Below are positions 285 to 59,151 of a stretch of DNA of 64,000 bases, piece by piece. Every line of letters begins with the position of its first letter. The first letter of the stretch is position 1. The position numbers and the translations under genes were made by a program. This DNA is from Glaucostegus cemiculus (taxonomy: Eukaryota), in the NCBI GenBank assembly GCA_976551045.1, contig CDPCPM010000148.1, positions 1,178,001 to 1,242,000 of the forward strand, in the 5' to 3' direction. The notes beneath the pieces are model-generated. The model did no database searches and was not told where the DNA came from. It worked only from the letters and a program-made list of their open reading frames with translations.

Positions 285-1826
285 CTATGATTTTACTAAT
301 TTAACAATTACATTCAGTGGATACTTCATCTGTTTATCAGCTTCTCTCCGAACATGCTCTGGGTCAGAACATAAATATATATGTTGGTGCAGGTACTGAC
401 CCCGTTCAGCATGTGTGATGTCTGTTTTGTTATGTATTTAGGTTCACCATAAGAGAGCAGTTTCTGAATACTAACAGTCCGTATGTAAACGGTATACACG
501 ATGGCGGTGACCTACAGTAATATGGAACTGCAGGTTGTACTGTGGAATAAAACGATGGGTTTATTTCGGTTCTCCATCTCCTAATCCCTATCATTGCCGC
601 GGCCCAGGAGCACCCGGCGCACTCCACAGGCTGCTAAAAATCCACTGACAACAATTAATTAAAATAAAAAGATGAGAACAAATCGGGAGGCAGGGCATTA
701 AAATACGATCACTTACGTCAAATGCGGACCCAGTGGCGGATGTGTTGAACTCCTGATTCATGTCACTACGCCAGAGGACGCCACCGATGAAACATGGTTA
801 CTTATAAAGTATTCCGTGTCTGTAGGTAAAGAGCCCGGCACACTCGTTGTCCCGATAACCACAGCCGCCGGTCTCTCGGTGTAATATTTGACTTTCAGCT
901 TCTCATAACAAATCGCTACAGTTGGATAAAAGGGAAAAAAAAAACGACTGTCTTTCACAACGTTGATTGAAGCGAAAGCTCACAGAGAACCCAAATGCGG
1001 CACACAAGTACAAGCCTGGAGTCAGGATACTTCCTCAGGACCGGACACAGGCAACACTGGAAGGAATCTTGCCTCGGAGATCTGAGTACTAATCCCAACA
1101 CGATAGCGGCATGATAGCGTAGCGGTTAGCGCGACGCTGCTACAGCGCCGTCGCTGTCTGTATGGAGTTTGTACGTTCGCCCGGGTCTGCGTGGGTTTCC
1201 TTCGGGTGCTCCGGTTTCCTCCCACAGTCTAAAAGACGTACGGGTAGGTTAATTTGGGGGGGGGATTACAAATGGGCGGCGTGGACTCGGAGGGCCTAAA
1301 GGGGGTGTTACCATGCTGTAAATAAAACAAACCACGAACTGAATCTTTAAGCAGGACTAGAGAACACAGGACAGCTCCAGAGTAGACCACTCGAAGCAGC
1401 TTGGAGCCAAAGTATACCCAAAGGTTGACCAATCCTCTGGGCAACGAGTAGTATAGAAACCCATGTACTTATGCTAGGCCCCTGATGAGGCTTAGTTGTG
1501 TGTCATTGTGCAATCAGTCCAGCATGGAATCCATGTGCTGTACAACGAGGCATCAAATGACCTAAATCAAGGGCCAGTACTCAGAATCATGACACTGTCA
1601 GCAGGGCAGAGACCGTGGCAGATTCCGAAAGTTGTAGGTTATGTGATACGCAGGGGAATAAGGAACAGGAATGAATTGTGAAAATTAATCCGACCAATCC
1701 TCATCATTACAACGTCAATGAGAACTACCAGAAGATCAGCCGTTGCCATTCCTAGGAGGTAGTCAGGACAACATTTGGAGAGTCAGCATTTTTCTCGGGA
1801 CAGTTTGGCAGTGGCCAGCAAGTTCA
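285..1826 (-). pseudogene. GPR139-like GPCR copy A, exon 2 remnant interrupted by insertions
   Basis: The minus strand has a polypyrimidine/AG acceptor (1827-1828) followed by (V)NLLATAKLSREKC*LSKCCPDYLLGMATADLLVVLIDV. Further on are VAICYEKLKVKYYTERPAAVVIGT, EMENRNKPIVL and TCTNIYIYVLTQS..KYPLNVIVKLVKS*. It has several stops and frameshifts, and foreign sequence including a SINE at about 1020-1645. Exon 1 was not found. Confidence 0.85.
1100..1330 (+). mobile_element. tRNA-derived V-SINE (HE1-like)
   Basis: A-box-like TAGCGTAGCGG head, V-domain GTCTGCGTGGGTTTCCTTCGGGTGCTCCGGTTTCCTCCCACA, CR1-like tail and A-rich end. Similar to 8878-9120. Confidence 0.85.
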
Positions 1827-3349
1827 CTGGAAGAAAGAAAGGAGTCAGCAGAGAAAATACTGAGCAGAACAGGATATAAATGATGTTCTTTAGGAATGAA
1901 CGTACTTCACTTCCATGTTGAAAATTTCGCAATATACAGTCCAAATGCACACTTATCAAACATGTCCCAATGGTTTGTTCTTCTCATCTAACCATCCAAC
2001 GATATTTTCCTCTTCCCACGACAGTTCTCACATGAACAACCATGTTTCAAATTTGCGTATTATCTGCAAATATTAACAATTGATGGTGTATTTAAATTAT
2101 TAACAGCGAGCGCGAATCACAAACGACACTGCCCAAGCACTGAACTATGTGATCCCACTGCGTACAGAGTTACTCTCAATAGGGATCTCCACTGTTCATG
2201 TCTTCCTTCAACAGACAAACCTGTTCTTCATTGAATTCTGGATAAATATTGGAACATTTGTCGAATCTCATTGATCCTGTTTAAGAAATATAAGATCATC
2301 CCACTCCAGGAATTGGGCCGCAGTCCTGCAGGTTGCGGATCATCAAGCACTATCCCACCGATTTTTCCATATGTTGCAGATTCCACGCTCCAATCCCAAT
2401 TCAGGCAGAAGGTTTCCGACCAACCACGTGACCAAATGCTCATTGTAAACAATTTTGCTCATCTCACTTTTCATCCCATTAATTCAACGCTGTGATATAT
2501 AATTTCCTCATATTATATTTCCTTTTTTTTCTTATTTTACTCCAAGCAAAACGTTCCATCCCGTTCCATCGCGGACCATCTTTGCTCGTCACACAAACTC
2601 CATCAGCTCCATGTCTGGCATCTTCGTTGTCAACTTCACCAAAATCCTGCCCAGGGCTACCATACCCTTCCCGCAGTGAAGTGAGCAAAACTGCGCTCTA
2701 TTTACTGGACTGTTGTGGCCACTTTACTAATTTCTACCTTTCTGGAAGGTTGACCATTCTATGAAACACTACGTCACCATCAGAGAGAAGAGTGAAATTG
2801 TCTAGGCGACCTACAGTAGTGGGAAAATTTTGACAAGAATTCTTGATATATTGCTCCACTGCAGTCCATCAGACGATACTAATGAAGTTCGCGTTGTTGG
2901 CACTCCATCAAGGGATTAACGCGCACTGTTGTGCAATCACTTTAAAATAGTGTTTCTTTGTTCTTCCCATCTACCCAGTCCTTCGATCGTTTCCCTTACC
3001 CGCGGGAATTTTCACACCACAATATCATCTGCAGAATTGTTAATAATTGCATTTACAATGAAATTCCAGACAGTCGTTTGGACCGCACATCACTTTGGAC
3101 CATGTCTTGATCTTCGTGGAAGCCACTACCTACAGCCTTGCAGCGATTAAGAAGCTCCACTTCTCATTATTTAACCGAAGGATATTTGATCCAATGTCCT
3201 CCGTCTTCGTCCCGACGGGATATTCCATTTCTGTCATATCGTACCCCGTCTCTGTATAAAAATGCAGACAATGTTTAACGGATTCAGTTGGTCTGCTTCA
3301 TGCTTTCATCTTATTCACCGTATTTCAACACATCTGGTAGATTTGGAAA

Positions 3350-5398: not shown

Positions 5399-6179
5399 TG
5401 TTACGAGTCATGTTACTACATGGTTAATGTCCCTTTAAGGCNNNNNNNNNNNNNNNNNNNNNNNNNNNNNNNNNNNNNNNNNNNNNNNNNNNNNNNNNNN
5501 NNNNNNNNNNNNNNNNNNNNNNNNNNNNNNNNNNNNNNNNNNNNNNNNNNNNNNNNNNNNNNNNNNNNNNNNNNNNNNNNNNNNNNNTGCAAAAATACTA
5601 TTACTGGAGCCTACTGGCTGTTTCACAGAGAGAGAGGGAGGGGGAGAGAGAGAGAGAGTAACTTACCGCCGGTCTCTGAATATATGGATGAAGAACAACA
5701 GCTGTGACTGTCACTATAACATCCATGTCCGGATTTGTACAGCATTCTGTGAACTCCAGTCTGTCGTTAACCTGCACTGGGAAGCAAGCTTATTTGTTGG
5801 CGGCCACCAATCGAGTGTCCTCGGTGTGGAAGGTACTTCGGAACAAAGCAATGGAGATAATTGGTGACTGAGGTGTCGTATGGGTTCCATCGTGGAACAT
5901 GTGGATATAGTAAATTCTCTCTACATTATCTCTGCATTTTCATTGCTATCTGCTGTGGGTTTTAGAAGTCTTTGCACATTGTTCTGCCTTATGACTCGCT
6001 GAACTGAACTTTGAGAACTCTTCCTAGACGTGAGGTTTGGTAAACACACACACCGAGTTTATTTTTGGGGTCAATGTTTAATAGCTCACTCTTTTATTTC
6101 TCTTCTCATTACAATCAGTTATTAATAAATAAATTCTGACATTTATACATTGACTTTTAGTTGTTTCTTTTACGTAACA
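5399..6179 (+). mobile_element. Candidate solo LTR spanning an assembly gap
   Basis: Starts TGTTACG and ends CGTAACA (7-bp inverted termini). Has an internal (GA)n run and AATAAA about 55 nt before the end. No target-site duplication seen. Confidence 0.45.
5442..5587. other. Assembly gap (N run)
   Basis: Run of n. Confidence 0.99.
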
Positions 6180-6530
6180 GGATAAACAATTCCAAAAGGA
6201 AGTCCAGTAACTAGGGCGTGGTAACGATTTGGTTGTACGATTACGTTTAACGAAACATGGGGACCAACGATCAGGGAAAAAAGAGCGCAGAGTGCTCCGG
6301 AGAAGTGTGACGTGGAAGGCAGTGACTGTGGCAACGGATAATGCACTGGGTGTAAAGCAAGTGGCAGTGTGCAGCAGATCAGAAGATTCCGGACAGGGAG
6401 ATTGCTGGGAGTGCTTGTTGCATTTGTTTTCTGAACTGAGAGAATGATTCAGGCCCGAGATGTGCAGCTCGTCTGCTCAAAGCCCGTTCTTATCAAGTGA
6501 AACCGAGAACTACTGCTCATGACGCTGCCC

Positions 6531-7024
6531 TTCACGGCTCTGCTTCCTCCATGGCTCTGCTTCTTCCACGGCTCTGCTTCCTTCACGGCTCTGCTTCCTC
6601 CACGGCTCTGCTTCCTTCACGGCTCTGCTTCCTTCACGGCTCTGCTTCCTCCACGGCTCTGCTTCCTTCACGGCTCTGCTTCCTTCACGGCTCTGCTTCC
6701 TCCACGGCTCTGCTTCCTTCACGGCTAAGCTTCCTCCACGGCTCTGCTTCCTCCACGGCTCTGCTTCCTCCACGGCTCTGCTTCCTTCACGGCTCTGCTT
6801 CCTCCACGGCTCTGCTTCCTTCACGGCTCTGCTTCCTCCACGGCTCTGCTTCCTCAACGGCTCTGCTTCCTCCACAGCTCTGCTTCCACCACAGCTCTGC
6901 TTCCTTCACGGCCCTGCTTCCTCAACGGCTCTGCTTCCTTCACGGCTCTGCTTCCTCCACGGCTCTGCTTCCTTCACGGCTCTGTTTCCTTCACGGCTAT
7001 GCTTCCGTCACAGCTCTGTTCCCT
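6531..7024. repeat. 17-bp minisatellite (CACGGCTCTGCTTCCTY), about 29 copies
   Basis: Head-to-tail 17-mer with C/T variants and degenerate ends. Confidence 0.95.
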
Positions 7025-7903: not shown

Positions 7904-10900
7904 ATGGACATCGCCTCGCAGGAAATAAAAATGAGATATCCAATTATTTTTCAGATCGAACTCATTTACTACCCTGTTTTGTTGACGATCAGTTTACCCG
8001 GTAAGATGGTTATGCAAGTCACTGGATGTGTAAATCCAGTCGAATCTTTCCTGTTCGTGTCGACTGCTTCAAGCACTGACGTGAAGTGTTTTCACTGTAA
8101 TTGAACAACGGTTTGAATGAACTGCAGGAGCAGTGTTTCAGCATTTCCGTCCTGCGGTTCCCCTGTTGATGCAATGAGGCGAGCAGAGCTTACACCAAAG
8201 TGCACTTGGTGCAGTTACTGCTCAGTGATGTCTGGTGTTATTTTAGTAAATGACGAACTTCCATTTCTGATAAAAAATCTTTCAAAACCATTAAGCTGTT
8301 GTGTTTTTGCATCTACAGTTACTTCCTGGCGCGCTGATCGTCTCTAACCTTTCCGGCTTTTGTTTCAGGTTTTCAGCAAATGCATTTTTTTTATTTCAGT
8401 TAACTTCCAGCAGCAAGGTCCTTGCGAGAAATGAACATCTTTGAGAGTGTTAGAAACTGTGGAATATACTGATCAAGTGTCAACGGGCCACATTCAAATT
8501 CTTGATGAGATTCAGTCATTTGCTCTCAATATTACTGACATTATTTGGCTGATCTGATCTTGTTGTTCACTAAATCTATCATTGTAGCATTGGAATAAGC
8601 AGTGATTTCAACGAAATTGACGCAGTTTGATAAAAGTTATGGATCTCTCATTTTGCCTGATGTGCCACGGTTCGGGCAGGTGCGTGAGGTGTCAGAGTGG
8701 AATATTATGCTGCTGGGTATTGATTGCATACAAACGGCTCTATCATCCCTGGGAATGTTACTTGGTCGCTGCATTGCCCGTTATATTTGAAAAAGGAAAA
8801 GAGGCTTATTCAGTACAGTCATTGGAAAGGTAGAAAGAATTGTGATAAAATATGTTATAGATCAGCTGGATATAACACGGCACGGTTGCATAGCGGTTAG
8901 CGCGCCACTAATACAGCGCCAGCGATCGGGGTTCGATTCCCGTCGCTGTCTGTAAGGGGTTTGTACTTCTCCTCGTGTCTGCGTGGGTTTCCTCCGAGTG
9001 CTCCCGTTTCCTCCCACATTTCAAGACGTACGGATAGATTAACTTGGGTGTAGAATGGGCGGTGCGGACGCGTTAGGCCGGTGGGGCCTGTTAACAGGCT
9101 GTAAATAAAATAGAACTAAAAAAATAGAAAAAAAAAATATGTTGTAAAATAAGGAAAACGGAAATCCAACGTGATTGAAAAAAAAACAGAGTGAGACAGA
9201 CGGAGACAGAGCGACTAATTGGGAACAGCCTGATCGACCATGCATTATTTTTATGTTTTATTCTATTTCTGTTTCTCCGTTCGTAACCACATTATTTATG
9301 GATTTCACCATAACGACTTTCGTTATTTCTCCCTGAATCTCTTCAAAACTTTGTCTCCCCTCTGCTCCCTTATTTATTATTCTATTATTACATTATATTT
9401 CTTTTCAGTGTGATTTCCAGATTCAAAATATTCTATTTTTCTTCGTTTCTCTGTATTGCTGAATCTTCCGAACGAATGAGGATATTTTGTTGTTTGGTTC
9501 ATTGCGCCTATTGATTGGATCGGTTCATTCTTAAGTTTGTTGCATTATCATTTCCTGCCGTCCTCTTCTCCAATCTACAATTCTTTTATATATTCTTTCC
9601 CCGTTCATTTCCTTTCTATCCTTTTTCGTAGATTTTCCAATGTTCATTTCCGCGGTCTGAAATACTTGTCATTTTTCTCAAAGTTATGCAGTCAGTGCCT
9701 TTCATTTCCCACTGAGCTCTCACATTCTTGCAACATCACAATTCCATGGTGACATTTTAGTCTTATTTTGGGCATCTGAGTTGCATCATTATAGCTTTTG
9801 GATTTTGTTTTGTTTTCTGGTCACGGGAGTGACGATTCGATGTTCGGTTTAGCTTTTGCACGGCTGAAATTTTACCTGGCATTGTTCGTGTTGGTTTATT
9901 TTCCTGATTTATTGTTGTCAATGCTGATCTCTCAGAACCGAAATTTGCTGCACTTTCATTTCCTTTTTTTTAACATTTCAATTTATGCTTGGAGGTAAAA
10001 ATATGCTCCCGGGAATACAACAATGTTACAGTGAGCATGATGATCCACTTCCTAAATAACTTGTTTTTTTTTTTGGTTGTCTAGTGATCGTTTCTTGTCT
10101 TCCTTCAACAGTGAACCTAATAGCGATTGTGATCCTGTCGCGAGGAAATTGCGGTCTCTCCAAATGCATCACTCGCTACCTGGTGGCAAAGGCAGCGGGC
10201 GACCTCGCAGTGATGATTACCAATGTGATAATGCACAGAATTAATAGCATGTACTTACCTCTTAATTTCTTATTCTTGACCACTGTTTGCTCTCTCTCAG
10301 ACACGCCCTCTACATCTCCTCCCTTATCTGTTCCCTGTGGTTTACAGTGGCTTTCACCTTTGACCGCTTTATCGCAATTTGCAGTCAGAACGCCAAATCA
10401 AAGTGGTGCACTGAGAGAACTGCGGCCTTGGTTCTATCGGTCGTGTTTGCGGGCAGCTGCGTGAGAAGCATACCTTTTTTTCTTCATGTACAGACCTGCC
10501 TTTGTTATCGACAGCACGTCATGGTATTGCATCGGGAAAATGGACTACAGAACATCGGACTTCTGGAAAGCATACGAGTGTATTGATAGTATCTTAACCA
10601 CTTTACCTCCGTTTGTGTTAATCTTGTGTGTTCCATGTTCTCACTGCCAAGCATATCCTAGCGGCAAGTAAAGTTCGAAGAGGATTGCGGAATAGAAATG
10701 AGGACCGGAATGATCCAGAGATCAAGTGTAGAAGGAAGTCGATGATCTTGTAGTTTGCGCTCTCCTCCAATTTCATCCTCTTGTGGATGACATATCTCCT
10801 GCATTCCTTAGTTTGGCAAATGCAGAACTACACTTACCACAACAAGGATTTCAACACCCCTGTGAACATCGTGCAGCAGGTTGGGTTTATGCTGCAGCTT

Positions 10901-10996
10901 CTCAGCTCCTCCACCAATACCTGCATCTACGGACTGACACAGAGGAAATTTAGACAGCTGAAAAATGGAATTCAATGTCTATTTAAAATGAATTAG
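7904..10996 (+). pseudogene. GPR139-like GPCR copy B (exon 1 7904-8000; exon 2 10112-10996)
   Basis: Exon 1 is MDIASQEIKMRYPIIFQIELIYYPVLLTISLP followed by G|GTAAG. Acceptor is CAACAG|TGAAC. Exon 2 reads VNLIAIVILSRGNCGLSKCITRYLVAKAAGD, FTVAFTFDRFIAIC, LLSSSTNTCIYGLTQRKFR. Frameshifts near 10290, 10480 and 10630; TAG at 10751-10753. Confidence 0.92.
8878..9120 (+). mobile_element. tRNA-derived V-SINE (HE1-like) in the intron of copy B
   Basis: A box TTGCATAGCGG, B box GGTTCGATTCC, V-domain, tail GGCCGGTGGGGCCTGTT...TAAATAAAA. Confidence 0.9.
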
Positions 10997-11836: not shown

Positions 11837-11849
11837 TCCCACCCCTCGG

Positions 11850-12950
11850 AAGTTACACCATTTAACAATCGTAGGGAGAACTAAAACTAAACAAAGAAAT
11901 ATGGGTCAATATGTGGTACTAATAACCTGCCGAGCGCATCACAAAATACAAAACCTATAACAACTAAAACGAGGGTGTTGGCCCAGTGGGTGACAGTTGC
12001 CTAACATCCCTTCCAGTGACCCAAACGACCACCTGTTACCTATAAGGTGTCGTGCCGGAGGAGCTGCTCCCTTGGTTTTGAATTTTGGCCACCGAGTCAT
12101 TAAAGTGAGAGGCCAGGTTGCTGGGGGTGCTGGATCTGTTAGAGGTAAAAGTGCCTTACTGCTTACTAATCACTGCACACGTACCACATACTAGCGGGTA
12201 GGTCATCCAGCGCCGTCCTTGTCTGGAACGCTCTGGTCATTTGCATGATCTCATGGGGACAGGCTGACTGTGAAATACGGGGGGCAGGTGATCATGCAGA
12301 ACCTCTCCGCCTCCGTGATGGCCCTGCTGTCCTTGCAGCCGCTGTATGGCGGGTAATCCCCGGGTCATCGATCATGGATTCAGGGCACCACAAACACTGG
12401 AAAGTAGCACCAGTACCAGCTGGTGGGGAGCCACGGGTCGGTACTGTAGCCGCAAATCCAGTGCGTCCTGTTCAAAGTTAAGGGACGCCCCAGATTTGCG
12501 GCACCATCGGCAGTGGTCATGGAGGACTCAGTAATTGTGGAATGCACTGAGCGTCGCGACTCGGGTGGAGGCCAAATTGTAGGAAGGGAAATACCAGCTC
12601 CTGAAACACCCACCCCACTGGGAATCCTTAGATGGACTGTGCTGCAGTGATGTGGGAGGGATGATGGGGGGGGGGGCGTAAAAAAACAATATACCGAACC
12701 CGACAGGCGCAACAGGAAAAAAAAAAGTCCATGTAACCAGTTCATTTCGAAAAGTATCCAAAGGAATCGTTGTCAATGGCAGAGTTTCACCGGCGTGTGC
12801 TGCGATTCGGAGGTAGGTCCAACAGTTCAATACATTACAGGTGCTGGCGAACTCGTAGGCAACTCTGAGGAAGGTTTAATCAGACGTCTCGATGCCAATC
12901 ATCGCGGTGAACAGGATGAGGGAGTGGACTTATTCCATCATCCTGTAGGG
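11850..12950 (-). pseudogene. env: ERV env remnant (gamma-type SU/TM)
   Basis: NCWTY...LPLTTIPL sits in the CWxC region. LNRTHWICGYSTDPWLPTSWYWCY resembles the SU C-terminus. RAITEAERFCMI resembles the TM start. AFQTRTALDDL..GTCAVISK is a degenerate LQNRxALDxL/CX6CC. Many stops and frameshifts. Confidence 0.7.
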
Positions 12951-12999
12951 GAGGTGGGGGAGGAGATAAACTCACTTCCGGCAGGTAGCAGTTGCGTCT

Positions 13000-15900: not shown

Positions 15901-15958
15901 GTGTGGCCTCAGGTCCCCCGGGAGCGGAATGGTGACGGGGCAGACGCTGGCCTTCATC

Positions 15959-17465: not shown

Positions 17466-17496
17466 CTCTAACTGTCATCCCTGAAATCCGGGAAAT

Positions 17497-17519
17497 CGCA
17501 AGAGGGGGTGTGATGCGCG

Positions 17520-17597
<78 letters not shown>

Positions 17598-17987
17598 GCT
17601 GCTTGGTTACAATTAATCAGGGAAGTAAACAATACAATGCCTGAGCCCCTGACGCTCGGCAGGTATCGGCTCTACGCTACAGGGAATCTCTTAATCCCTA
17701 CGGAATTGCACACTCTTAACAATGGTCTTCGGCCTGGTTTCGGTTCCTGCAGCAATCAAAAGAGCGAGAGAATCACGCACATAGGGCATTCTTTATAGTA
17801 CTAGAGAATAGGGTGGAGCGATTCAAAAGGTCCAATAGGACATGGCCAGGTGAAAAAGTGTGTGCAGAAGCTAATATTCAAGAGTGTACACTCATGGATG
17901 TGTCGAGCTAGACCTTGATTTGCATTGGTGTCGCCTCCGAACAGTGCTCAATGGGGTCACGTGACAGCCATGAGCCTTCACACTACG
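17497..17987 (-). repeat. ERV 5' LTR-like sequence, divergent and truncated
   Basis: Shares colinear blocks with 11141-11836: GTAAACA..ATGCCTGAGC, TATAGT.CT.GAG...GGGTGGAGC, ACCTTGATT...TGGTGTC, CAGCCATG...CA.ACTAC. Confidence 0.7.
17525..17596. repeat. (CA)n microsatellite
   Basis: Perfect CA run. Confidence 0.97.
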
Positions 17988-18029
17988 TCGGCTCATGAAA
18001 CTGAGGATGGGTCTCCATCACATTTTTAT

Positions 18030-21019: not shown

Positions 21020-23368
21020 ATGGGGATTATATCGGAGGTAATCAGGAGCATCGAGCGTATTTATTATCCTGTGATTTCAGCCATTGGTATTCCTGGTAAG
21101 ACTCGTTTCTCGCGGTCGATGACGTTCACTGTGCTGTGTTTTGCGGTTTCATTGCCGGCGCCGCCTGCTTTCCTCAGCCGTCTGCTCGGACCCAGCCGGT
21201 CGGCGATAGAATGTACCAACAGACAGCTTCCTCAGTTTGTAACTGAACAGAGACAGCTCTCTTCCTCCAAGTCAGGCAAAGCTAGAGAAGCAAGGGGGTC
21301 AAAGATTACCGACGGATTTGAGAATGCGGCATTGTTGGGGCAAATGTATTAACCGTGATCCGACAGTAAAGAGGAGGCGGAGGGACCGACCTGTTCTCCT
21401 GAAGAGCATACAACGGCGACGTTTTTGTCAACATAAGACACTAAGATCAAAAACCGAACGAACTACTATTTTTGACTATCTCATTCACAGCTTTCAAGCT
21501 CTGCTGAATGGAGATCACTTGAGATAATGTCACATCCATCTTCAGATTACGTTAGCCCTTATCCATTTGAACGCTCACGATCCTGACCACAAACCCTTCT
21601 GCTCAATGTCCCATTGAAAATACCGCCAGGGCTGGACAATCACAGCAGGTCAGGTAGCATCTGCACAAAATGGCACTGTTAACGTGTTTTCTGCAGAACC
21701 CAAAGGTGCGTCTCGTTGAGCGCCCTGCTCCTGTAAAAAGGTGCTCAATTCTGAAATCTGTTTTCCCCCAGCATCCGGGAACGTTGATTGCCCAGGGCAG
21801 ATTGTCCCCAACTTGTACTGTTGATGATGGGGAGACAATGGTCATTTTAATGGGGGATGTTCAATGACAACAGAATAGAATTGCTGTGAAACGGTGTTTG
21901 ATGGTTGGCGCGGACGGTGAGCCGAATACGTTGTTTCTCTGCTCTATCACTGCGTGACAAGTGACCATCAGTGGACTGTTCAATACATCAGCTGTTTTTT
22001 GAGACCGGTATTTTGTAGATACCCTGAAATAATATATCGTAAGGCTAACTCCTGTGTCACCCTTTTCTATTCTCCAAGATAGCCAAACCAATGCACATAC
22101 GCAAACCACCCAACTCGGTGCTTCCGTCTGGGCCTCGCATCCCACCATATCACATTGGAATCGTCTCCATTAGGTACCACGTCCTCCCGAATGGACTACA
22201 GCCATTCTCGGCTTCGGGGCTCAATTTCTTTTCTTTTGGCGTCGACACGATGTTTCATGATTTACCATAACCGAAGGCATGGCGCTGTATTGTTGTATGG
22301 TTCTATCGTTCTATGGTACAACTGGCCCTTCACAGTGTAGGGAAGGCAGATACTGAGGAGCCGATCCGTTTCTCTGCAGGTTGTGCAATGTTATTCCAAA
22401 TTTCACCGCAATCTGTTGCGTCCAGCGACAAGCAATAATTTATCTTCTTCTTTCTCTCTCTTTCAGTTAACCTGGTGGCGATTGTGATCCTGTCCGGGGA
22501 AAGTGCGATCTTTCCAAATGTATCACTCGCTACCTGGTGGCCATGGCGGCGGGCGACCTCCTGGTCGTTCTCACTGATTAAATTACTGAGGTGGACTGGT
22601 CAAATTTATTTCCCAGATTCATTCCTGCGCATAACTCCCGTGTGCAGTCTCGCTGTCGTCCTACTTCGTGCGGCCACGAATGTCTCTGTTTGGCTGACGG
22701 TCGCTTTCACCTTTGATCGATTTGTGGCCATTTGCTGTGAGATGCGAAAAGCAAAATATTGCACCGAGAGAACGGCGGCTCTGGTTATAGGGACAGTGAG
22801 TGTGCTGAGCTGTCTGGTCACCGCACCTTGGTACTTTGTTTATAAAGAGGAACGTTTCATTAATGGTGATCCCTGCGAATGCACAGTGAAACTGAGCTTC
22901 TACACTTCATCAGCCTGGGCCGCATTTGACATCGTAGACCGCATCTTAACGCCTTTCCTTCCCTTCTTCCTGATCTTGCTGCTCAATGCAATGACGGTCA
23001 AGCGCATCATAGAATCCAGTAGGGTTCGCAAGGGACTCCGGGTCCGCAGCAATGGAGAGAATGTCAAGGATCCGGAGATGGAGAACCGAAGGAAGTCCAT
23101 CGTTTTACTCTTCAGTATCACCGGCAGTTTGTTGTGGATGACGAAAGTTGTGTTCAACATTTACAGGCGGTTTGCATACAATAAGTCGAACTTGACACCA
23201 GGGCTTTTTATCACGCAACAAACATCATTCATGTTCCAGCTTCTCAGTTCCTGCACCAACACTTGTTTTTATATCCTGACACAGAGCAGATTCAGAGAGG
23301 AGCTGAAGAACGCGGTGAAGTACCCAGTGAAATTAATTGTTAAATGTGTCAACACCAGAAACTCCTGA
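21020..23368 (+). CDS. GPR139-like GPCR copy C (exon 1 21020-21095; exon 2 22467-23368): open 325-aa frame, but ICL1/TM2 is scrambled by compensating frameshifts
   Basis: MGIISEVIRSIERIYYPVISAIGIP followed by G|GTAAG; acceptor TTTCAG|TTAAC. Motifs WLTVAFTFDRFVAIC, DPEMENRRKSIVLLF and LLSSCTNTCFYILTQSRFR. It may be a pseudogene despite the open frame. Confidence 0.85.
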
Positions 23369-29132: not shown

Positions 29133-29134
29133 GA

Positions 29135-40139: not shown

Positions 40140-41595
40140 ATGGGAATTGGATACACAATAATCAGGAGAATCGAGCGTATTTATTATCCTGCGATTTCAG
40201 CCATTGGTATTCCTGGTAAGGCTCGTGTATCGCAGTCAATGACGTGAACTGCGATGCGATTCACGGCTTCGGAGCTCACTCTCTCTGTGGATTGCATCTC
40301 TGTGGATTGTTAGATAAGCACATGGAAGAATGTGGAATAGTAGGATATGAGGGTGGAAAGAATTAGTTTGGGAGATGTTTGTAGGATGGCACAGCTTGAT
40401 GGGCCGAAGGGCCTGTTCTGTGCTGTATTGTTCTATTGTTCTATTGTTTCTATTGTTCTATTGACATGACGTTTCATTATTTACTATCCCTAAAGAAAAC
40501 CGGCCCTTCACAGTGCAGGGCAGGCGGGGTCTGAGTAATAGATCCGATTCTCTGCAATTTGTGTAATTTCGTGCCAAATTTCACCATAATATTTTGCGTC
40601 TAACGACAAGCAATAATTTATCTGCTTCTTTCTTTCTCTTACAGTTAACCTGGTTGCAATTGTAATTCTGTGCCGGGGAAGGTGCGGTCTCTCCAAATGT
40701 ATCACTCGCTACCTGGTGGCCATGGCGGCGGCCGACGTCCTGGTCGTTCTCACTGATCCATTACTGAGGTGGACTGGTTGAATTTATTTCCCGGATTCAT
40801 TTCTTCGCATCACTCCCGTGTGCAGTCTCACTGTCGTCCTACTTTCTGCTGCCACGAATGTCTCTGTTTGGCTGACGGTCGCTTTCACCTTTGATCGATT
40901 TCTGGCCATTTTCTGTGAGAAGCGGAAAGCAAAATCTTGCACCGAGAGAACGGCGGCTCTGGTTATAAGGACAGTGAGTGTGCTGAGCTGTCTGTTGGCC
41001 GCACCATGGTACTTTACTCAGAAAGAGAAACGTATCATTAATGGTGTTCCCTGAGGCTGCAAAGCGAATCCGTGCGCCCTCATTTCATAGGCCTGGGCCG
41101 CATTTGACATGGGTTACCGCGTCTTAACGCCTCTCCCCTTTGTTCAGGTGCATCTTGGTATCCAGTCGGGTTCGTAAGGGACTACGGGTCCGCAGCAATG
41201 GAGGGAATGACAAGGATCCGGAGATGGAGAACCGTAGGAAGTCTATCGTTTTACACTTCTGTAACACTGCCAGTTTCATCTTGTTGTGGATGACGAATGT
41301 TGTGTACAGCTCTTACGGAAAAATTGCACACAATAATATGGGCTTAAGTGATCCGCTTGCTGTCACGCAAAATACAGCATTCATGTTGCAGCTTCTCAGT
41401 TCCTGCACCAATACCTGTATTTACGTCCTGACACAGAGCAGATTCAGAGGGGAGATGAAGAACGCGGTGAAGTTCCCAGTGACATTAATTGCTAAATGTA
41501 TCAAACTGGAAGAGAAACACTTGAAGAGTTTCGATCACTGGAATCACGTCCTCCAACTCACTCTGCCACACTCGTTCCACATTCCATTCATGTGA
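40140..41595 (+). pseudogene. GPR139-like GPCR copy D (exon 1 40140-40215; exon 2 from 40645)
   Basis: MGIGYTIIRRIERIYYPAISAIGIP|VNLVAIVILCRGRCGLSKCITRYLVAMAAADVLVV. In-frame TGA at 40779, TGA at 41052 and TAG at 41088, plus a deletion in TM5 near 41140. Confidence 0.93.
40300..40463 (+). mobile_element. 5'-truncated CR1 tail in the intron of copy D
   Basis: Resembles 32420-32565; GGGCCGAAGGGCCTGTT followed by (TTCTATTG)n. Confidence 0.88.
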
Positions 41596-47415: not shown

Positions 47416-50400
47416 CAAGATCACAAGATCACAGGATAATGGAGAAGAAGCAGGCCAGTCGGCCCATCGAGTCTGCTCCAAAGGGAAGGGAGGGTGGGGA
47501 TAAGAGGATAAAAGAGAAAAAAAAAACAATTCTAAGTCCGAATCCCTGCCTTATCTCCATATCCCTTGATACCTTGACCAATTAGATATCTACATATTTC
47601 CTTCTTGAATATCCACAATGATCTGGCTTCCACTGCTTTCTGTGGTAAGGAGTTCCACAGGTTCACCACGCTCTGCCTAAAGAAATTCCTCCTTATCTCT
47701 GTTTTGAACCTGCTTCCTCTAATTCTAAGGTTGTGTCCTCTAGTCCTGGATTCCCCCACCAAGGGAAACAGCTTGACCACATTCACTTTGTCCATTCCTT
47801 TCAACATCTTGTACCTTTCTATTAGGTTTCCTCTCATTCTTCTGTACTCTCACGAGTACAGTCCAAGAGACGACAGTCGCTCATCATATGAAAGCTTTTT
47901 CATTCCAGGAATCATCCTAGTAAATCTCCTCTGAACCCTCTCCAACATCAGCACATCCTTCCTGAGATATGGGGCCCAAACCTGCACACAGTACTCTAAG
48001 TAAGGCCTCACCAGTGCCCCGTATAGCCTCATCAACACTTCCTTGCTTTTACATACTATACCCCTCGAAATAAATGCCAACATAGCATTCGCTTTCCTTA
48101 CCGTCGATCCAACCTGGCGGTTACCCTTTAGGTTATCCAGTACGAGCACCCCTAAGTCCCTTTGTAGTTCTGTGCTTCCAGTTTTATCTCCTTCTAGATA
48201 ATATTCTGTCCGTCTATTTCTACTTCCGAAGTGTACAACTGCACATTTTTTCCACGTTGAACCTCATCTGCCATTTCTTCGCCCATTCTCCTAGACTATC
48301 CAAGTCTGTCTGTAACTTTCCTGTCTCCTCACTCTCTTCCCACCGCCCCCAATCTTAGTGTCATCTGCAAACTTGGCCACAAATCCATTAACTCCTTCGT
48401 CTAAATCATTAATACGCAAGGTAAAAAGAAGGTGCCCCAACACCGACCCCTGCGGAACACAACTAGTAACCGGCAGCCAACCGGAACAGGAACCTTTTAT
48501 TCCCACCCTCTGTTTCCTGCCATCCAGCCAACGCTCCACCCATTCTGTTATCCTGCCTGTTATTCCGTGATCTCTCATCTTACTAATTCGTCTTTTGTGC
48601 AGCACGTCGAATGCCTTCTGAAAGTCTAAATACACTACATCTATGGCCTCTCCCTTGTCCACCCTACCTGAAATTTCTTCAAAAATCTCAAATAAATTGG
48701 TCAGGCAGGATCTTCCCTTCACGAACCCATGTTGAGTAGGACCTATCTTGTCTTGCACCTCCAAGTATCCCATCACCTCGTCCTTGAGGATCGATTCTAG
48801 TATGTTCCCCACCACAGACGTAAGACTGATAGGTCTGTAATTTCCTTTGTGCTGTCTCCCACATTTCTTATACAATGGAACTACATTCGCGACCTTCCAG
48901 TCCTCCGGAACCTCTCCAGCTTCTATCGATTCCTGAAAAATTATCACTAATGCCTCCACTGTTTCTAAAGCTACTTCCTTCAGTACACGGGGATGTATCT
49001 CATCCGGTCCCGGATACTTATCAGTCTTTAACCCATTTAGCTTCCCCAGCACATCCTCTCTAGTAATCTTAACTGTACTCAATTCCGTCCCTCGAGACCC
49101 TTGACGAACCGGTATATTGTTAATATCTTCCACCGTGACGACCGACGCAAAATACTGATTTAGCACCTCCGCCATCTCTTTATCATCCATAATAATCTCT
49201 CCCGCATCATTTTTTTTCGGTCCTATATCAAACCGCGTCTCTCTTTTACTTCTTATATATTAAAAAAAAACTCTTAGTATCCTTTTGAATGCTCTCTGCC
49301 AATTTCATTTCATTATTTCTATTTTCTAATGACCTTCTTAATTTCCTTCTGTAGGTTCTTAAAAGTTTCCCAGTCTTCTGTTTTCCCGCTTTTTCTTGCT
49401 ACCTTATATGCCCTCCCTTTTGCTCTTATTTTAGCTTTCGCCACCCTCGTTATCCGCATTTGTGTTCTTTTCCCATTGAAAACCTTCTTTTTTTCTTGCA
49501 ATGTATCTATCCTGCATTTTCCTTATTTCTTGCTTAAATTCCATCCATTTATGTTCTGCCGTCCCTCCAGCAAGCTTATATTTCCAATCAATCTGGGCCA
49601 ACTCTTCTCTCATCCTTCTGTAATTCCCCTTGTTCCACTGAAATGTCGACACTCCAGTCATCAGCTTCTCCTTTTCAAAATTCATTCTGAACTCAATCAT
49701 ATTATGGTCACTAGTTCCTAATGGCTCCTTTAGCCTTAGTTCTCTAATCACCTCTGGTTCATTGCACAACACCCAATCCAAAACAGCCGATCCCCTGGTG
49801 GGCTCATCAACAAGTTGTTCCAAAAAGCCGTCCCGTAAACATTCAACAAACTCGCTCTCCTGAGAACTGCTGCCTTGCTGGGTTTCCCAGTCACCTTCAT
49901 GTTAAAGTCACCCATAATTATCTTAACATTGTCACTCTGACATGCCTTTTCTATCTCTAACTGCAACTTATGGTCTACCTCCTGATTGCTATTAGGGGGC
50001 CTATATACAACAACTACAACTGTCCTCTTACTCTTGCTATTTCTTAGTTCAACCCATAAAGTTTCCACTTCATCTGACCTAATGTCCTTCCTTTCTATTG
50101 ATTTTATCTCATTACTAACCATCATGGACACACCACCCCCTCTACCTTCCCGCTTATCCTTCCTATACACTGTGTACCCCTGGACATTGGGCTCCCAGTC
50201 ACATCCATCATGCAGCCGCGTCTCAGTGATTGCCACAATGTCATATTTATTAATCTGCAGCTGTGCTACTCGGTCATCTGCCTTGTTCCTGATGCTACGT
50301 GCATTTAAGTATAATACCTTGAGCTCGTTAACCACTGTTGATTTTGTTGCGCTTCCTTTTTTCAGCAACTTATCCTTAATTTTCATTTCCTCGTCCTTCT

Positions 50401-51150
50401 TTCTATCCTGACTGCTCACTATCATGGACTTCTTTTTATTTGCCTCCGCCTCTAGTCTAACATCCTGTGTCCTAGCATTCTCATTTACTGTTCTACTATC
50501 GTTCAGCATGTTACCCTGATTAATCACTTGCCTGTCCGTCTTGCCATCCTTATCACGCACTAACTTGGACCTATTTTTATAAAACTCCTGCCTTTCTCTA
50601 TCTACTTTTACCCTAATATTCTGGGTCCCATCCCCCTGCTTGATTAGTTTAAACCTTCCCCAACAGCTATGTTAAACAATCCCGCCAGGACACTGGACCC
50701 TTTTGAGTTGAGATGTAACACATCCTTGCAGTATAGCTCCTCCCTCCCCCAAAAAAGGTCCCAATGGTCCAGGAATCTGAAGGCCTGCCCCCTGCACCAG
50801 TCACTATGCCACGCGTTCAATTGCCATTTCTTTCTGTTCCTGCTACTACTTGCGCGTGGCACAGGCAGCAATCCTGAGATTACCACCTTAGGGGTCCTTC
50901 TCCTCAACTTCCTTCCTAACTCTCTGTATTCTTCCTTCAGGAGCCCTTCTCCTTTCCTGCCTATGTTATTGGTGTCAACATGTACCAAGACCTCTGGCTG
51001 TTCCCCCTCTCCCCTCAGAATATTCTGGAACCGGTTCGTGATATCCCTTACCCCGGCACCAGGGAGACAACACACCATCCGGGATACATTGTCAGACTCA
51101 CAGAATTTACTATGTGTACCCCTCACTATCGAATCTCCTATAACCACTAT
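47416..51150 (-). mobile_element. Near full-length CR1 (ORF1 SGNH esterase plus ORF2) nested in L1
   Basis: VVIGDSIVRG..CLPGA..HVDTNNIG..DVLHLN; LYLNARSIRNK; QHGFVKGRSCLTNL..VPQGSVLG..KFADDTK; (CAAGATCA)n tail. Confidence 0.95.
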
Positions 51151-52334
51151 ATTGCTGTATTGAAAAAAAATATTCAATAAACGAACAAAACAAAACAAAA
51201 AGCATCACCCAATATTAGTAAATGATTACTAGAATAAAATAAGCGAAAGAAAAAGAACAGTAAAAAAAAAGGTTCAAAACGAGGGATAGACAATCATTCA
51301 ATAGGAGCTTCCAGAAAAATCTGGGCTTCTTCCGAGGATCGACACCATTCTTGCGAGCCGTTTTCAAGTATGATTCTTGTCTTGTCGGGAATCGACGTGA
51401 CGGCTGATACCCTTTCTGATACAGATCCGACATAACCTTTTTGAAATTAACCCGTTCCTTCATAACCTCTGGTGAGTAATGTCAACGATTCTAATTTGAC
51501 AATCTTGGTAATGAAACATGCCTTTCCGACGTGCCTCCCGAATTAGAAGCTTCTTAGTTTGAAAGTCGTGGAGAGAGATGATAATTCATCTGGGTTTAAC
51601 TTGCGTATTAGGTTTGGAAAAAAAAAAACATTCTGTGTGCTCGATTAAACTTAGGCAAAGGTTCTAGAAAAGCAGGGAATAACTTTGCCTAGAATTCCAG
51701 ATGTTTATTACCTTCAGTCTTTTCTGGTAATCCTAGAATTCGAAGATTGGATGATCCGCTCTAGTTTTCTAAATCAATATTCTTCAGCGTTAGTCTTTCG
51801 TGGTCTTCAGCTTTTTTTTTTTACAAAGGTTCTGTAAGTCACCAATTTTCCCATACAAAACCGAAAGAGAGGCTTCGTCCACTTGAAATTGTTCCTCATG
51901 ATCTTCCAGTCTTCTTTGAAAAGAATCGAGTTTCGCAGAAAGTTGTTGAAGCTGCTCGAAAATAGCATCCAGAGTTACAGGACACGCATCTTCCTTAGTG
52001 GTTTTCATAGCCTTGGCATCCCTTGTATTCATAGTAAAATGAAATGAAACCTTTACACCTACTACCAAGAGCGAAAAGGAGGATTTCAAGTCGGGTTGAA
52101 AAGGTTAGATTTAGTGAGAACAGTAGCAAGTAGCTGTTCCTCCATCAACGGCCAGCAGAGACTCCGAATCAATGTCTTCTTGTTTTCCCTGTTTCTGATA
52201 TTGTGGTAAGTTTCCTGAAGTCCACCTGTAGCCCTATTAGCTTTGTATATCTCAGTTACGTCCCCTGTTAACCTCGGCCGTCCAGAGAGAACAGAGCTAG
52301 TTTCTGTTGCCTGTCTTCTCATCTGAAAAGATCC

Positions 52335-55876: not shown

Positions 55877-58800
55877 ATGGATCTGGAAAGAGTAGAGAGT
55901 AACGGTACAAGGATGGATCAGACTCTGGGAGCAGTTCAGTGGGACGTTGCACCAGTGGATCGGCAGCAGGAAACAGACTGGGATTTTACAGGAATGGGGC
56001 GGAATGGGGATGTTCACCTGAAGACTCATGAATCGTGCTTGGCACCGTTATCAGTGCGGATCTATTATGTACTCGTGGCATTTTCGCCGATTTATTACCC
56101 TATCCTCGCTATTGTTGCAGTCCCTGGTAAGTGTAAGTCTCTGCAGACAACTGTTTCCAGCGTTAACTATATTATTGTCTTAGCTGTAATTTGATCTGCT
56201 TGCGAAAAGTCTGTGTCTCGAGTTGTACAAAACATAGCAGGTGTGGCTGAAGTAGTCAGTCATGAAGACAAAAATCCTTACTTTCTGCATTTCGTTACTC
56301 GATAACTCTGGCTGGAATATGGAAGAGGATTCGAACCCAAAATGCAAGGCATTTTCTCCAACACGACACAACCCAACTCTCGCCGCTTGACATTGAAAGG
56401 CATCACCTTCACTAAAATTGATTGAGCAGAGACTAAACTGGAGTAGCCATATAGACAATTGGTTACAAGAGCAGGAGCAGGTCGCTCAGGTCAAGAGTAC
56501 TTCAAGAGCAGTCGCTCATCTTCTAATTACCCAAAGACATCCCGTCATTTACAACTCTCAAGTGATGAATGTAATGGAACAACTTCCACCGGTGCATGAG
56601 CGCAGCATCAACAACACTTTGGAAGCTCGATACCACACAAGAAACAGCAGCCCGCCTGATATGCACCTCCGTCACATGCATCCATTCCCGCCAATAATGA
56701 CGGAGATTATCAGCAGTTTGTACTATCCGTAGGATGTGATGCAGCAACTCACCAAGACTCCTGAGACTCTACCTTCCAAATCCACAATCTCCAGCAGGTA
56801 GAAAGGAAAGGGCAGGAAATGCACGGGTCACCGACATCTCGAAATTGCCCTCCGAGCCACACACCATACTGATACGGAAGTGTATCTCTGTTAATTCATC
56901 GATGTTGTGTAAATGTTATGGAAATTCCTTCCTAAGGGCGTTGTGAGTACACTTACATCACAAGAACTTCAGTGGTTAAAGAAGTAAGATGACCACTAAC
57001 TTCTCAAGCGGAATAAGGAAAGGTAATTAAATGTCAGCTCTTCCTGAAAAGCCGACGGCACTTGCATAAACTAAAAGAAAACATGGTCGGTTAACGTTTG
57101 GCAGGCAAGTGAAAACGGTGGAAATGTTCAGCGTCATAGGGAACGACTGCAGGAAAGAGATAACAGCATTCTCACAGGTATACGAACACAGAGCTGAAGC
57201 GGAATAGGAACGAAAAGCAACAGACATAAATTTTAAGACAAACTGGGACAGAAATGAACCTTGAGTGTGTAACTGGATGAAGGATAGATTTGCTCAAATT
57301 ATGTAAATCTTGATTATATAAGCTGGGGAGTGGACAGAAATGGCTTGGAAGGAACATCAGTTGAGACAGCGGTGGTACAACTGGGAACGCATGAAATCAG
57401 AAGCCAGAACCTGATGTAAGCCAAGGTCACAAGACAATTTTCAGCAGCAGAAATCTGATTAGATTGCCCCAAACATACCCAGGGCTGATGGCAAGAACAT
57501 CAGCCGATTGGCCCTTTACTAAACTATGGTACAGGGCAATCAATAGGGACACGAATCGTTCGGACACTCCCGTACTATGCAGTGATCAGTAGGACCAAAC
57601 GTGGATGATACACATACAGATCAGACTGGGACACAACCTGTTTGTGAACCTCCGGAGATCAGGTGCCACTGTTTTACTGTCTGACCTTTAACGTGTGCAT
57701 TTATCCCGGTGCGGTGGCTGCCTGAACAGCTGGAAAGTACACTGCTGGCAGATGAATTCGACATCACGGATTACAACTGATGTACGAGCGCAAAGGTGAA
57801 TCCTGCGTGGTAACAGGTGTGTGAAGGAAAAGACGTGGGTTAATTGCACTAATGGGAGGTCGCTGAGAGTGGATGTGGACATGTGGGCCATGCCTCACCC
57901 AGAACGTAAAACGTTCCCCAGTTACAATACATCGAACCGTAACTCAATGTAGGAACAACTTGATTTTGTTCTCAGTAAATACAACGATGCTCCCTGCCAG
58001 TTGTGTAATTTTGTATTCTTCCCTTGTTCACAGTGAACGTGCTGAAGATTGTGGTCCTGTCCCCGGGGAAGTGCGGTCTCTCCAAGGGTGTTACATGCTA
58101 CCTGTTGGCCATGACAGCGGCGGATCTACTAGTCGTTTTCCTGGACGTGATATTGAGGAAGATACCGACAGCTTTTTCGGATATTTTCGCCTTTCTCTAT
58201 TACGTCCGCGTGTGCAGAACCCACGCGTTCCTGCTTTACGCCGCCACCGACTGTTCTGTCTGGTTCACCGTCACTTTTACCTTTGATCGATACGTGGCCA
58301 TTTCCTGCCACAATTTGAAAAAGAGATACTGTACCGAGAAAACTGCGGCTGTGGTTCTGGGGACTGTGACTGGGCTGAGCTGTCTAAAGAAAATTTTCTG
58401 GTATTTCATGGTCCAAGACACTTATAAGGCGTCTAATGTCCGATGGATTTGTGTTCTAAAATTCGGTTTGCTAACTTCTGTCACCTGGGTGGTGATAGAG
58501 ACCGTCCGTTCCGCCCTGACCACTGTGATCCCGTTTGTCTTGATTGTTCTGTTCAATGCATTAACAATCAGGCACGTGTTGTTGGCCAGCAGAGCCCGCA
58601 GGAGACTCCGTGGTCCCAGCAATGGGGAGAATCCCAGAGCTCCGGAGATGTAGAGCCGCAGGAAAGCCATCGTTTTACTGCTGGTCGTCTCGGGGAATTT
58701 CATCCTGTTGTGGGCGTTGTACGCCGTGACTGCCGTATGGAACAGGATTATTTACGTCATAAGAATAAACACGGTGCATCTACCTGTTTTTCTCACCGAG

Positions 58801-59151
58801 CTACGCTACATGCTGAAACTGTTGAGCTGCTGCACAAACACTGCTCTTTATGCAGTCACCCAGACTAAGTTCAGGGAGCAGCTGAAGGAACTGGTGAAAT
58901 CCTCTCTGACTCTGTTTGAAATGGAGACTGCTCTGGGAGAAGGGGAAGAAATCACAGTGGTGGCCCAGGCGATCCGGCTCCCTTACCCACACTTGAGGGT
59001 CCGTGCAGTGCCAATGACGTCTGGATTATCTGACTCCTGTTCCATCACCTTATGTTTCATCAGATCATATCTCTCATTCTGCTCCGATGCTGTCTTTTGC
59101 GACTTTATCATTTGCAATCTGTACCACTATTCAGATTGCTCCAGCATCTGA
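55877..59151 (+). pseudogene. GPR139-like GPCR copy E (exon 1 55877-56126; exon 2 58034-59151) with a single in-frame TAG at 58651
   Basis: Long N-terminus ending ...SPIYYPILAIVAVP followed by G|GTAAGT; acceptor CACAG|TGAAC. Exon 2 reads VNVLKIVVLSPGKCGLSKGVTCYLLAMTAAD, FTFDRYVAISC, APEM*SRRKAIVLL, LLSCCTNTALYAVTQTKFR, with the same frame on both sides of the stop. Confidence 0.92.
56340..57045 (+). mobile_element. Old non-LTR retrotransposon 3' end in the intron of copy E
   Basis: IEQRLNWSSHID..IYNSQVMNVMEQLP is an RT C-terminal-like sequence, followed by a 3' UTR. Clade not determined. Confidence 0.65.

What the first reader, a model, noticed from the sequence alone, without database searches (positions are those of the whole stretch)
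285..59151. Array of five GPR139-like GPCRs in birth-and-death evolution: candidate lineage-expanded chemosensory (amino-acid) receptor family
Seen: five paralogs in 64 kb share exon 2 starting NxxxIVxLSRGxCGLSK, FTFDR[FY]xAI, PEMExRRK and SCTNTxxY. In the four copies where exon 1 is found, it ends YYPxxxxxxxP-G|GT. At least three divergent subtypes (B; C/D, with A closest to these; E) differ most in the extracellular and TM5-TM6 segments, and every copy has a lesion. Established: mammalian GPR139 is a single-copy, two-exon receptor with YYSLLLCLGLP|AN in TM1 that responds to L-Trp/L-Phe, and cartilaginous fishes have few classical OR genes. Inference: clustering, divergence and frequent pseudogenisation are hallmarks of chemosensory repertoires, so this may be a functionally uncharacterised sensory receptor family. 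The sequence says nothing directly about ligand or tissue.
Basis: partly seen in the sequence, partly recalled or inferred. Interest (0 to 1): 0.85.

Follow-up and report, generated by a model that had tools for sequence, protein, structure and literature searches.

The report
Overlooked giant shark-ray receptor family
This stretch of a ray-like fish genome holds five damaged copies from a very large, old and apparently undescribed family of cell-surface receptors in sharks, rays and chimaeras; their binding pockets vary the way smell and taste receptors do, so they may be an unrecognised chemical-sensing system, though no tissue or ligand has been shown.

Summary
Observation confirmed with corrections. 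There are five two-exon class A GPCR paralogues: A on the minus strand, B-E on plus. All five are damaged, and the quoted motifs are a consensus, not shared by every copy.

They belong to a large chondrichthyan family that NCBI auto-names 'probable GPR139'. Among the 240 best hits, 88 clusters are Heptranchias and 83 Heterodontus; chimaera members exist.

They are not GPR139 orthologues: identity is about 27%, the TM3 cysteine is kept, and 0 of 238 members carry the F/H/R/N Trp/Phe-binding set. The nearest relatives are salamander genes, then coelacanth and teleost genes probably equal to 'GPR210'.

Pocket positions are hypervariable while the G-protein face is conserved. Equally diverged paralogue pairs share 32% of pocket residues, against 18 of 25 for the coelacanth-teleost pair.

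Best reading: a diversified chemical-detection repertoire (0.55). The amino-acid ligand idea is unsupported, and expression is untested. Ten literature searches found no description of the expansion.

The parts
285..940 (-). Copy A, exon 2, 3' part (TM3 end to helix 8); pseudogene with several stops and frameshifts
   Evidence: 133 bits
941..1650 (.). About 710 bp insertion splitting copy A exon 2 and replacing part of TM3; contains a repeat also found at 8940-9110 and 60223-60359
   Evidence: boundaries approximate
1651..1826 (-). Copy A, exon 2, 5' part (TM1 end to TM2/ECL1), stop at 1785; exon 1 not found
7931..8000 (+). Copy B, exon 1 (short N-terminus and TM1 start; phase-1 donor)
10112..10996 (+). 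Copy B, exon 2; frameshifts near 10306, 10482-10494 and 10627, stop at 10751; end approximate
   Evidence: groups with Stegostoma/Chiloscyllium genes 100/98
21020..21095 (+). Copy C, exon 1
22467..23368 (+). Copy C, exon 2; compensating -1/+1 frameshifts (22493, 22579) scramble ICL1-TM2 in an otherwise open frame; 2-codon deletion in TM6
   Evidence: 80% identical to a Pristis pectinata protein
40140..40215 (+). Copy D, exon 1; tandem duplicate of C, including about 1.5 kb of upstream DNA at about 80% identity
40645..41595 (+). Copy D, exon 2; stops at 40779, 41052 and 41088, frameshifting deletion near 41151; homology ends about 41505
55994..56126 (+). Copy E, exon 1 (first in-frame ATG at 55994; homology from about 56048)
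58034..59151 (+). Copy E, exon 2; single nonsense codon TAG at 58651 before TM6; homology ends about 58920
   Evidence: groups with Mobula genes 100/99

Best explanation
The window is part of a tandem cluster of a chondrichthyan-expanded class A GPCR family, the radiation of a GPR139/142/'GPR210'-related ancestor; the five local copies are dead or dying members. Intact members most likely work as a diversified chemical-detection repertoire. Each compact 7TM receptor binds a different small exogenous molecule or short peptide in a variable, usually net-acidic TM pocket, and signals through a shared conserved intracellular face. Coupling is probably Gq/Gi, as for GPR139. The likely sites are chemosensory cells: olfactory, taste, solitary chemosensory, skin or gut. 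SHOWN: gene structure, lesions, family size in relatives, phylogeny, pocket hypervariability, inner-face conservation. INFERRED: exogenous ligands, cationic or peptide preference, G protein, sensory tissue.
For: Size: 1442 of 4789 candidates at E<=1e-10 with copy E and 2082 of 2849 at E<=1e-5 with copy C. Only the top 120 of each were listed. The two lists do not overlap; 238 of 240 carry chondrichthyan species names and 2 are unnamed. There are 80 distinct 25-residue pocket strings among the 88 Heptranchias proteins and 77 among 82 Heterodontus. Single-species or single-genus clades occur alongside subfamilies shared by sharks and rays, and two Callorhinchus genes nest inside. Pocket-facing positions are more variable than neighbouring non-pocket positions: 2.81 vs 2.07 bits in 52 diverse representatives (p=0.0002) and 1.97 vs 1.57 in 238 named proteins (p=0.024). 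The inner half is conserved at 0.7-1.7 bits vs 2.2-3.2 in the outer half. Control: the coelacanth-teleost pair keeps 18 of 25 pocket residues at 57% overall identity, while 11,608 (non-independent) shark paralogue pairs at that identity keep 32% on average (95th percentile 48%, maximum 76%). C vs D: pN is 0.067 inner and 0.207 outer (p=9e-7). 72 of 128 scorable proteins have <=25 residues before TM1, none of these with an N-glycan sequon. Context: the catshark has only 8 OR/OR-like, 3 ORA, 3 TAAR, 2 TARL and 32 V2R gene models (PMC11979771 section 13).
Against: No expression or ligand data were found. The catshark tissue atlas supplement was unreadable, and the supplements of five other papers had no hit. 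The catshark top-50 'brain and olfactory epithelium' genes held no GPCR; this is weak evidence, since sparse receptors would not rank there. Positive selection is not shown: outer pN (0.207) exceeds pS (0.131, p=0.023) but equals flanking non-coding divergence (0.196-0.267), and D is a pseudogene. 5 of 5 local copies are damaged. Closely related batoid C-type genes (window C, Pristis, Mobula, Amblyraja) keep nearly the same pocket, so some lineages have stable ligands. Expanded variable GPCR families are also immune or itch receptors (MRGPR, FPR; recalled).
Confidence: 0.55

Rival explanations
1. Innate-immune or somatosensory detector repertoire, like mammalian MRGPRs or FPRs. The receptors would sit on leukocytes, mast-like cells or sensory ganglia and detect cationic peptides or microbial products.
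For: Same signature of tandem birth-and-death evolution and variable pockets. The pocket is net acidic in 185 of 238 named proteins and 37 of 52 representatives. The whale shark paper states cartilaginous fishes lack MAS1 and related receptors (PMC8455134 passage), leaving that niche open. Catshark OR genes are themselves expressed in spleen and stomach.
Against: No direct evidence. No hit in the one small supplement of the nurse-shark spleen paper, which is uninformative.
Confidence: 0.25
2. GPR139/GPR142-like sensors of aromatic amino acids or of one endogenous neuropeptide, simply multiplied.
For: GPR139 is the best PDB hit. W6.48 is kept in 238 of 238 named proteins, an aromatic 3.33 in 170 of 238 and H5x43 in 186 of 238. 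GPR139 and GPR142 respond to Trp/Phe (PMC7318219 passages).
Against: R6.51 is present in 24 of 238, N7.39 in 12 of 238, E3.32 in 0 of 238, and all of F/H/R/N in 0 of 238 and 0 of 52. H5x43 falls to 12 of 52 in diverse representatives, and none of the five window copies has it. A single ligand would predict a conserved pocket, as in the coelacanth-teleost pair.
Confidence: 0.1
3. Largely neutral expansion: duplication-prone, repeat-rich regions amplify a dispensable gene and most copies decay.
For: 5 of 5 copies here are damaged. The window is rich in retroelement remnants. Outer-half divergence of C vs D is at the neutral rate.
Against: Hundreds of near-full-length annotated proteins exist in relatives. 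dN/dS between subfamilies is 0.27-0.47 overall and 0.19-0.30 on the inner half where computable. Subfamilies are shared by sharks and rays. Variability is concentrated at pocket-facing positions.
Confidence: 0.1

Closest known systems
GPR139 / GPR142 (vertebrate Trp/Phe-responsive orphan GPCRs)
   Same: Best solved-structure sequence match; two-exon gene (PMC7318219 passage); aligned TM1 YY-x-P-x-N segment, W6.48, and N-x-x-x-Y in place of NPxxY.
   Different: About 27% identity, whereas zebrafish GPR139 is 70% identical to human. The family keeps C3.25 and the ECL2 cysteine (236 of 238), while GPR139 has Asp at 3.25 (alignment). P6.50/R6.51 are mostly lost, ICL3 is longer and carries the DPEMENRRKS-type motif, and there are many copies.
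'GPR210A/B' of Rinne et al. 2019 (PMC6504862): orphan subtypes listed under GPR139/142 in coelacanth, gar and a few fishes
   Same: The coelacanth (XP_005988539.1, UniRef H3B118) and teleost (KAM4562537.1) genes found here are sister to the shark+salamander clade (91/82). They share the short N-terminus and C3.25. They apparently share the intron position too: the alternative coelacanth model P0392 has an extra stretch between the P and N of TM1, consistent with read-through of an intron there (vs 36; inferred).
   Different: Low copy with a conserved pocket including R6.51. That study sampled no cartilaginous fish. The link between these accessions and its Ensembl ids was not verified.
Salamander 'probable GPR139' (XP_069092602.1, XP_069461538.1, XP_078504422.1)
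   Same: Closest non-chondrichthyan relatives: sister to the shark family at 100/99, 215 bits on the family profile.
   Different: One conserved cluster (25 of 25 pocket residues identical between Pleurodeles and Ambystoma), on a long branch; no sign of expansion in what was retrieved.
Vertebrate chemoreceptor families (OR, TAAR, V1R/ORA, V2R, T2R) and MRGPR/FPR expansions
   Same: Tandem clusters on many scaffolds, lineage-specific birth and death, pseudogenes, variable pocket, conserved signalling face.
   Different: Not members by sequence: the OR model PF13853 scores 17.6 bits against a cut-off of 27, and the family derives from the GPR139/FMRFamide-receptor-type branch. Sensory expression is unshown.

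Membership tests
Rhodopsin-class (class A) GPCR | 7tm_1 domain above cut-off; seven TM helices plus helix 8; N1.50, D2.50, DRY-like motif, P5.50, Y7.53 | tested here: met
   PF00001 55.9 and 66.1 bits vs cut-off 30.5; model of intact relative P0126 has 7 TM helices (pLDDT 68), TM-score about 0.7 to peptide GPCRs; motifs 98-100% conserved in named members
GPR139/142 wider clade | GPR139 is the nearest characterised receptor | tested here: met
   Top PDB hit for the profile, copy E, coelacanth and amphioxus. For the partial copy C alone it ranked below NMBR and SSTR2; the fold search did not discriminate (rank 8)
GPR139 orthologue | High conservation with human GPR139 (70% in zebrafish) and single copy | tested here: not met
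   About 27% identity; 69.7 bits, below invertebrate relatives on the same profile (those relatives were selected as hits, so the comparison is biased); many paralogues
GPR139 orthologue | Agonist-site residues F109(3x33), H187(5x43), W241(6x48), N271(7x38) (PMC5430874 abstract) and R244(6x51) (PMC8807744 text) | tested here: not met
   F 75/238, H 186/238, W 238/238, R 24/238, N 12/238; all of F/H/R/N 0/238 and 0/52
GPR139 orthologue | Same intron position as human GPR139 | not tested
   Two exons are stated in PMC7318219; the position in TM1 is recalled only
GPR139 orthologue | Grouping with vertebrate GPR139 in a tree | not testable with these tools
   No canonical vertebrate GPR139/142 sequence was retrieved, so none is in the trees
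GPR210 (Rinne 2019) | Grouping with ENSLACP00000014196, ENSLACP00000015589 or ENSLACP00000019189 | tested here: inconclusive
   The coelacanth/teleost sister clade matches the described range, but the accessions could not be cross-linked
Odorant receptors (OR) | PF13853 above cut-off | tested here: not met
   17.6 bits vs 27
Chemosensory receptor repertoire (functional kind) | Large clustered family with birth-and-death evolution | tested here: met
Chemosensory receptor repertoire (functional kind) | Hypervariable ligand pocket with conserved intracellular face | tested here: met
Chemosensory receptor repertoire (functional kind) | Positive selection at pocket sites | tested here: inconclusive
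   Only window pairs had DNA; C vs D outer pN equals flank divergence
Chemosensory receptor repertoire (functional kind) | Sparse expression in sensory cells and activation by environmental chemicals | not testable with these tools
   No expression tables found

The most novel reading that the evidence does not exclude
Cartilaginous fishes evolved, over about 420 million years, their own large chemoreceptor family from a GPR139/GPR210-type ancestor, outnumbering their known olfactory receptors. It would be an additional vertebrate chemoreceptor class expressed sparsely in nose or taste/skin chemosensory cells, and would explain keen chemical senses despite only about 50 classical receptor genes.
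Probability: 0.4. Interest if true: 0.93.

Novelty: new variant of a known kind. Interest (0 to 1): 0.76.

Why it matters
Sharks and rays are described as having small olfactory repertoires dominated by about 32 V2Rs (PMC11979771) and a 'relative paucity' of GPCRs (PMC8455134). A hidden class A family with at least 88 distinct members in one shark, disguised under an automatic single-gene name, contradicts that picture whatever its function. It also makes the question of how sharks smell and taste directly testable with existing RNA-seq. If it is immune rather than sensory, it is an unrecognised innate detector repertoire in the oldest lineage with adaptive immunity. The five copies in this window are themselves damaged; the value lies in the family.

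Tried and rejected
1. Getting canonical vertebrate GPR139/142 for the tree. The third homologue search, with amphioxus P0390, returned only 9 proteins (8 Branchiostoma, 1 without species). No other stored protein has the motifs. Relationship to GPR139 therefore rests on profile scores and printed alignments.

2. Fold search. It did not separate GPR139 from opioid, galanin or somatostatin receptors.

3. Exon 1 of copy A. A YPVLL-like stretch at 1876-1856 lies in the acceptor region and is not recovered by the exon-1 profile; rejected as chance. The exon may be lost or lie in the N gap at 5442-5587.

4. A sixth copy or a structured RNA. None found.

5. Assembly error as the cause of the lesions. 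Rejected for A, B, D and E, which carry substitution-type stops. Not excluded for C, whose frame lesions are indels only.

6. Positive selection between C and D. Not shown once flanks were used as the neutral yardstick.

7. Shared promoter motif among B, C/D and E. Upstream 300 bp was only printed and viewed; C and D share a TATA-like element, nothing obvious in B or E, and no statistical test was run.

8. Literature. Ten searches found no paper on this expansion in the listings. Main-text finds for GPR139 in PMC11979771 and PMC10620051 gave 0. Supplements of PMC8455134, PMC10620051, PMC11589584, PMC10529500 and PMC12361510 gave 0 (two scanned files unsearched). The PMC11979771 supplement was unreadable, and it may hold the decisive tissue data. 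The white shark paper was not held. Subscription journals were not searched.

9. Rows dropped. Two unnamed hits and one named hit lacking a full domain were left out of the 238-protein set. Heptranchias, Heterodontus and Pristiophorus were subsampled in the trees. Only 30 of 150 representatives were looked up by name.
Full report
OBSERVATION. Six-frame translation and tBLASTn show five GPCR loci. A profile of 30 relatives recovers exactly these five, with best segments of 122-434 bits against at most 5.6 bits in 10 shuffled windows. B, C, D and E are on the plus strand. Each has a 70-133 bp first coding exon ending in a phase-1 G|GTAAG donor, and a second exon carrying the rest of the 7TM domain. 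Copy A is on the minus strand, which the finding did not say. Its exon 2 is split by about 710 bp of unrelated sequence and no exon 1 is detectable.

LESIONS. B has three frameshifts and a stop, D three stops and a frameshifting deletion, and E a single TAG before TM6; A is heavily decayed. C has a -1 and a +1 frameshift 86 bp apart, so it translates to 325 aa but with ICL1-TM2 scrambled and D2.50 lost. It is probably non-functional unless both indels are assembly errors. C and D are a tandem duplication that includes flanks at about 80% identity.

WHAT THE GENES ARE. Pfam places them in 7tm_1 and below the OR cut-off. Copy E retrieves 1442 clusters at E<=1e-10 and copy C 2082 at E<=1e-5. Only the best 120 of each were listed, so the taxonomy of the rest is unseen. 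The two lists do not overlap; 238 of 240 are named chondrichthyan proteins from 15 species, mostly 'probable GPR139' but also GPR15-, bradykinin-, ACKR3-, tachykinin- and SIFamide-receptor-like. 88 are Heptranchias and 83 Heterodontus; these are lower bounds. A full scan of 50%-identity representatives found 101 at E<=1e-30. Best matches to a sawfish (80% for C) and to devil rays (67% for E) suggest the window comes from a ray, probably a rhinopristiform (inference).

PHYLOGENY. In the careful tree of 52 rows the 36 chondrichthyan rows form one group (91/80) that includes two Callorhinchus genes. The radiation therefore began before the chimaera-elasmobranch split, put at about 420 Ma in an abstract seen in a search listing (PMC6238376). 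Salamander genes are the sister group (100/99), then a coelacanth-teleost pair (91/82), then amphioxus 'GPR139'. B groups with Stegostoma and Chiloscyllium (100/98), E with Mobula (100/99), C with Pristis (99/83) with D next (100/99), and A with a skate gene (90/87). The 124-row tree shows single-species or single-genus clades as well, which is birth-and-death evolution.

RELATION TO GPR139. GPR139 is the best solved-structure hit of the family profile (69.7 bits, E 2e-18; next 8e-14), though not of partial copy C alone. A fold search of a modest model (pLDDT 68) ranks it 8th. The same profile scores salamander 215, coelacanth 189, teleost 165, amphioxus 127 and invertebrate relatives 83-109 bits. 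Identity to human GPR139 is about 27% (counted by eye), against 70% for true fish orthologues (PMC7318219 passage). The family, the bony-vertebrate relatives and amphioxus keep C3.25, which GPR139 lacks. Rinne et al. (PMC6504862, passages) named orphan subtypes GPR210A/B under the GPR139/142 heading, in coelacanth, gar and a few fishes, without sampling sharks. The coelacanth-teleost pair is probably that group, but the accession link is unverified. No canonical GPR139 could be placed in the trees.

LIGAND POCKET. Residues needed for agonist action in GPR139 (PMC5430874 abstract; PMC8807744 first third of text) were mapped by generic position. W6.48 is kept in 238 of 238 named proteins, H5x43 in 186 of 238 (12 of 52 diverse representatives), F3.33 in 75, R6.51 in 24 and N7.39 in 12; all of F/H/R/N occur together in none. 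The 25 pocket-facing positions, chosen from general class A knowledge, are more variable than 27 neighbouring positions (p=0.0002 for representatives, 0.024 for named proteins). The intracellular half is conserved. As a control, the coelacanth-teleost pair keeps 18 of 25 pocket residues at 57% identity, while shark paralogue pairs at the same identity keep 32% on average (pairs not independent, maximum 76%). Pockets are net acidic in 185 of 238, hinting at amines or basic peptides rather than free amino acids (inference). Against positive selection, outer-half pN for C vs D equals flanking divergence.

MECHANISM. The most likely reading (0.55) is a diversified detector repertoire for exogenous chemicals in chemosensory cells, with one conserved G-protein face (Gq/Gi by analogy to GPR139) and many pockets. 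Rivals are an immune or somatosensory repertoire (0.25), a multiplied amino-acid or neuropeptide sensor (0.1) and near-neutral amplification (0.1). Tissue and ligand are not shown. The readable supplements gave no expression data, and the catshark atlas supplement, which may be decisive, could not be read.

NOVELTY. The genes are present in NCBI annotation under an automatic name, but ten searches of the open library found no paper describing the expansion; subscription journals were not covered. Published statements point the other way: a small olfactory repertoire (PMC11979771 sections 11 and 13) and a paucity of GPCRs in cartilaginous fishes (PMC8455134 passage). Other papers were seen only as passages (PMC12294341, PMC12208981, PMC10620051, bioRxiv 10.64898/2026.08.31.747588) and do not mention the family there.

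Noticed in passing
window 22493-22579 (+): Copy C keeps an open 325-aa frame through two compensating frameshifts that scramble ICL1-TM2; an ORF-based count would wrongly score it as intact.
   Followed up: partly
window about 12000-17700 (-): GC-rich, degraded LTR-retroelement or endogenous-retrovirus-like remnant between B and C. The fragment at 15342-15668 matches protease/RT-RNase H polyproteins in PDB (best E 3e-4); no Pfam hit; broken into many short frames. Boundaries approximate.
   Followed up: partly
window 31177-31626 (+), 48294-49259 (-), 50647-51204 (-), 42672-43049 (-), 35719-36108 (-): LINE remnants: two RVT_1 fragments, a GDSL-esterase fragment (LINE ORF1 type, recalled), a zf-RVT fragment and an ALKBH8_N-matching fragment.
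   Followed up: no
window 6529-7022: 17-bp minisatellite, 29 copies, 91% matches, between the divergent copies A and B.
   Followed up: no
window 5442-5587 and 23919-24126: Two N gaps (146 and 208 bp); the first lies upstream of copy A and could hide its exon 1.
   Followed up: partly
proteins P0002, P0003, P0005, P0004, P0122, P0286/P0421: Public gene models of this family often fuse neighbouring tandem copies, miss the small first exon or join unrelated domains, and carry many different names (GPR15-, vasopressin V2-, capa-, tachykinin-receptor-like), so name-based counts are unreliable.
   Followed up: partly
proteins P0364, P0393, P0396: Salamanders retain a conserved sister gene of the shark family (100/99), a possible laboratory handle on the ancestral ligand and tissue.
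   Followed up: partly
about 80 bp upstream of ATG 21020 (C) and 40140 (D): Shared TATA-like element in the C and D upstream regions, not obvious in B or E.
   Followed up: no
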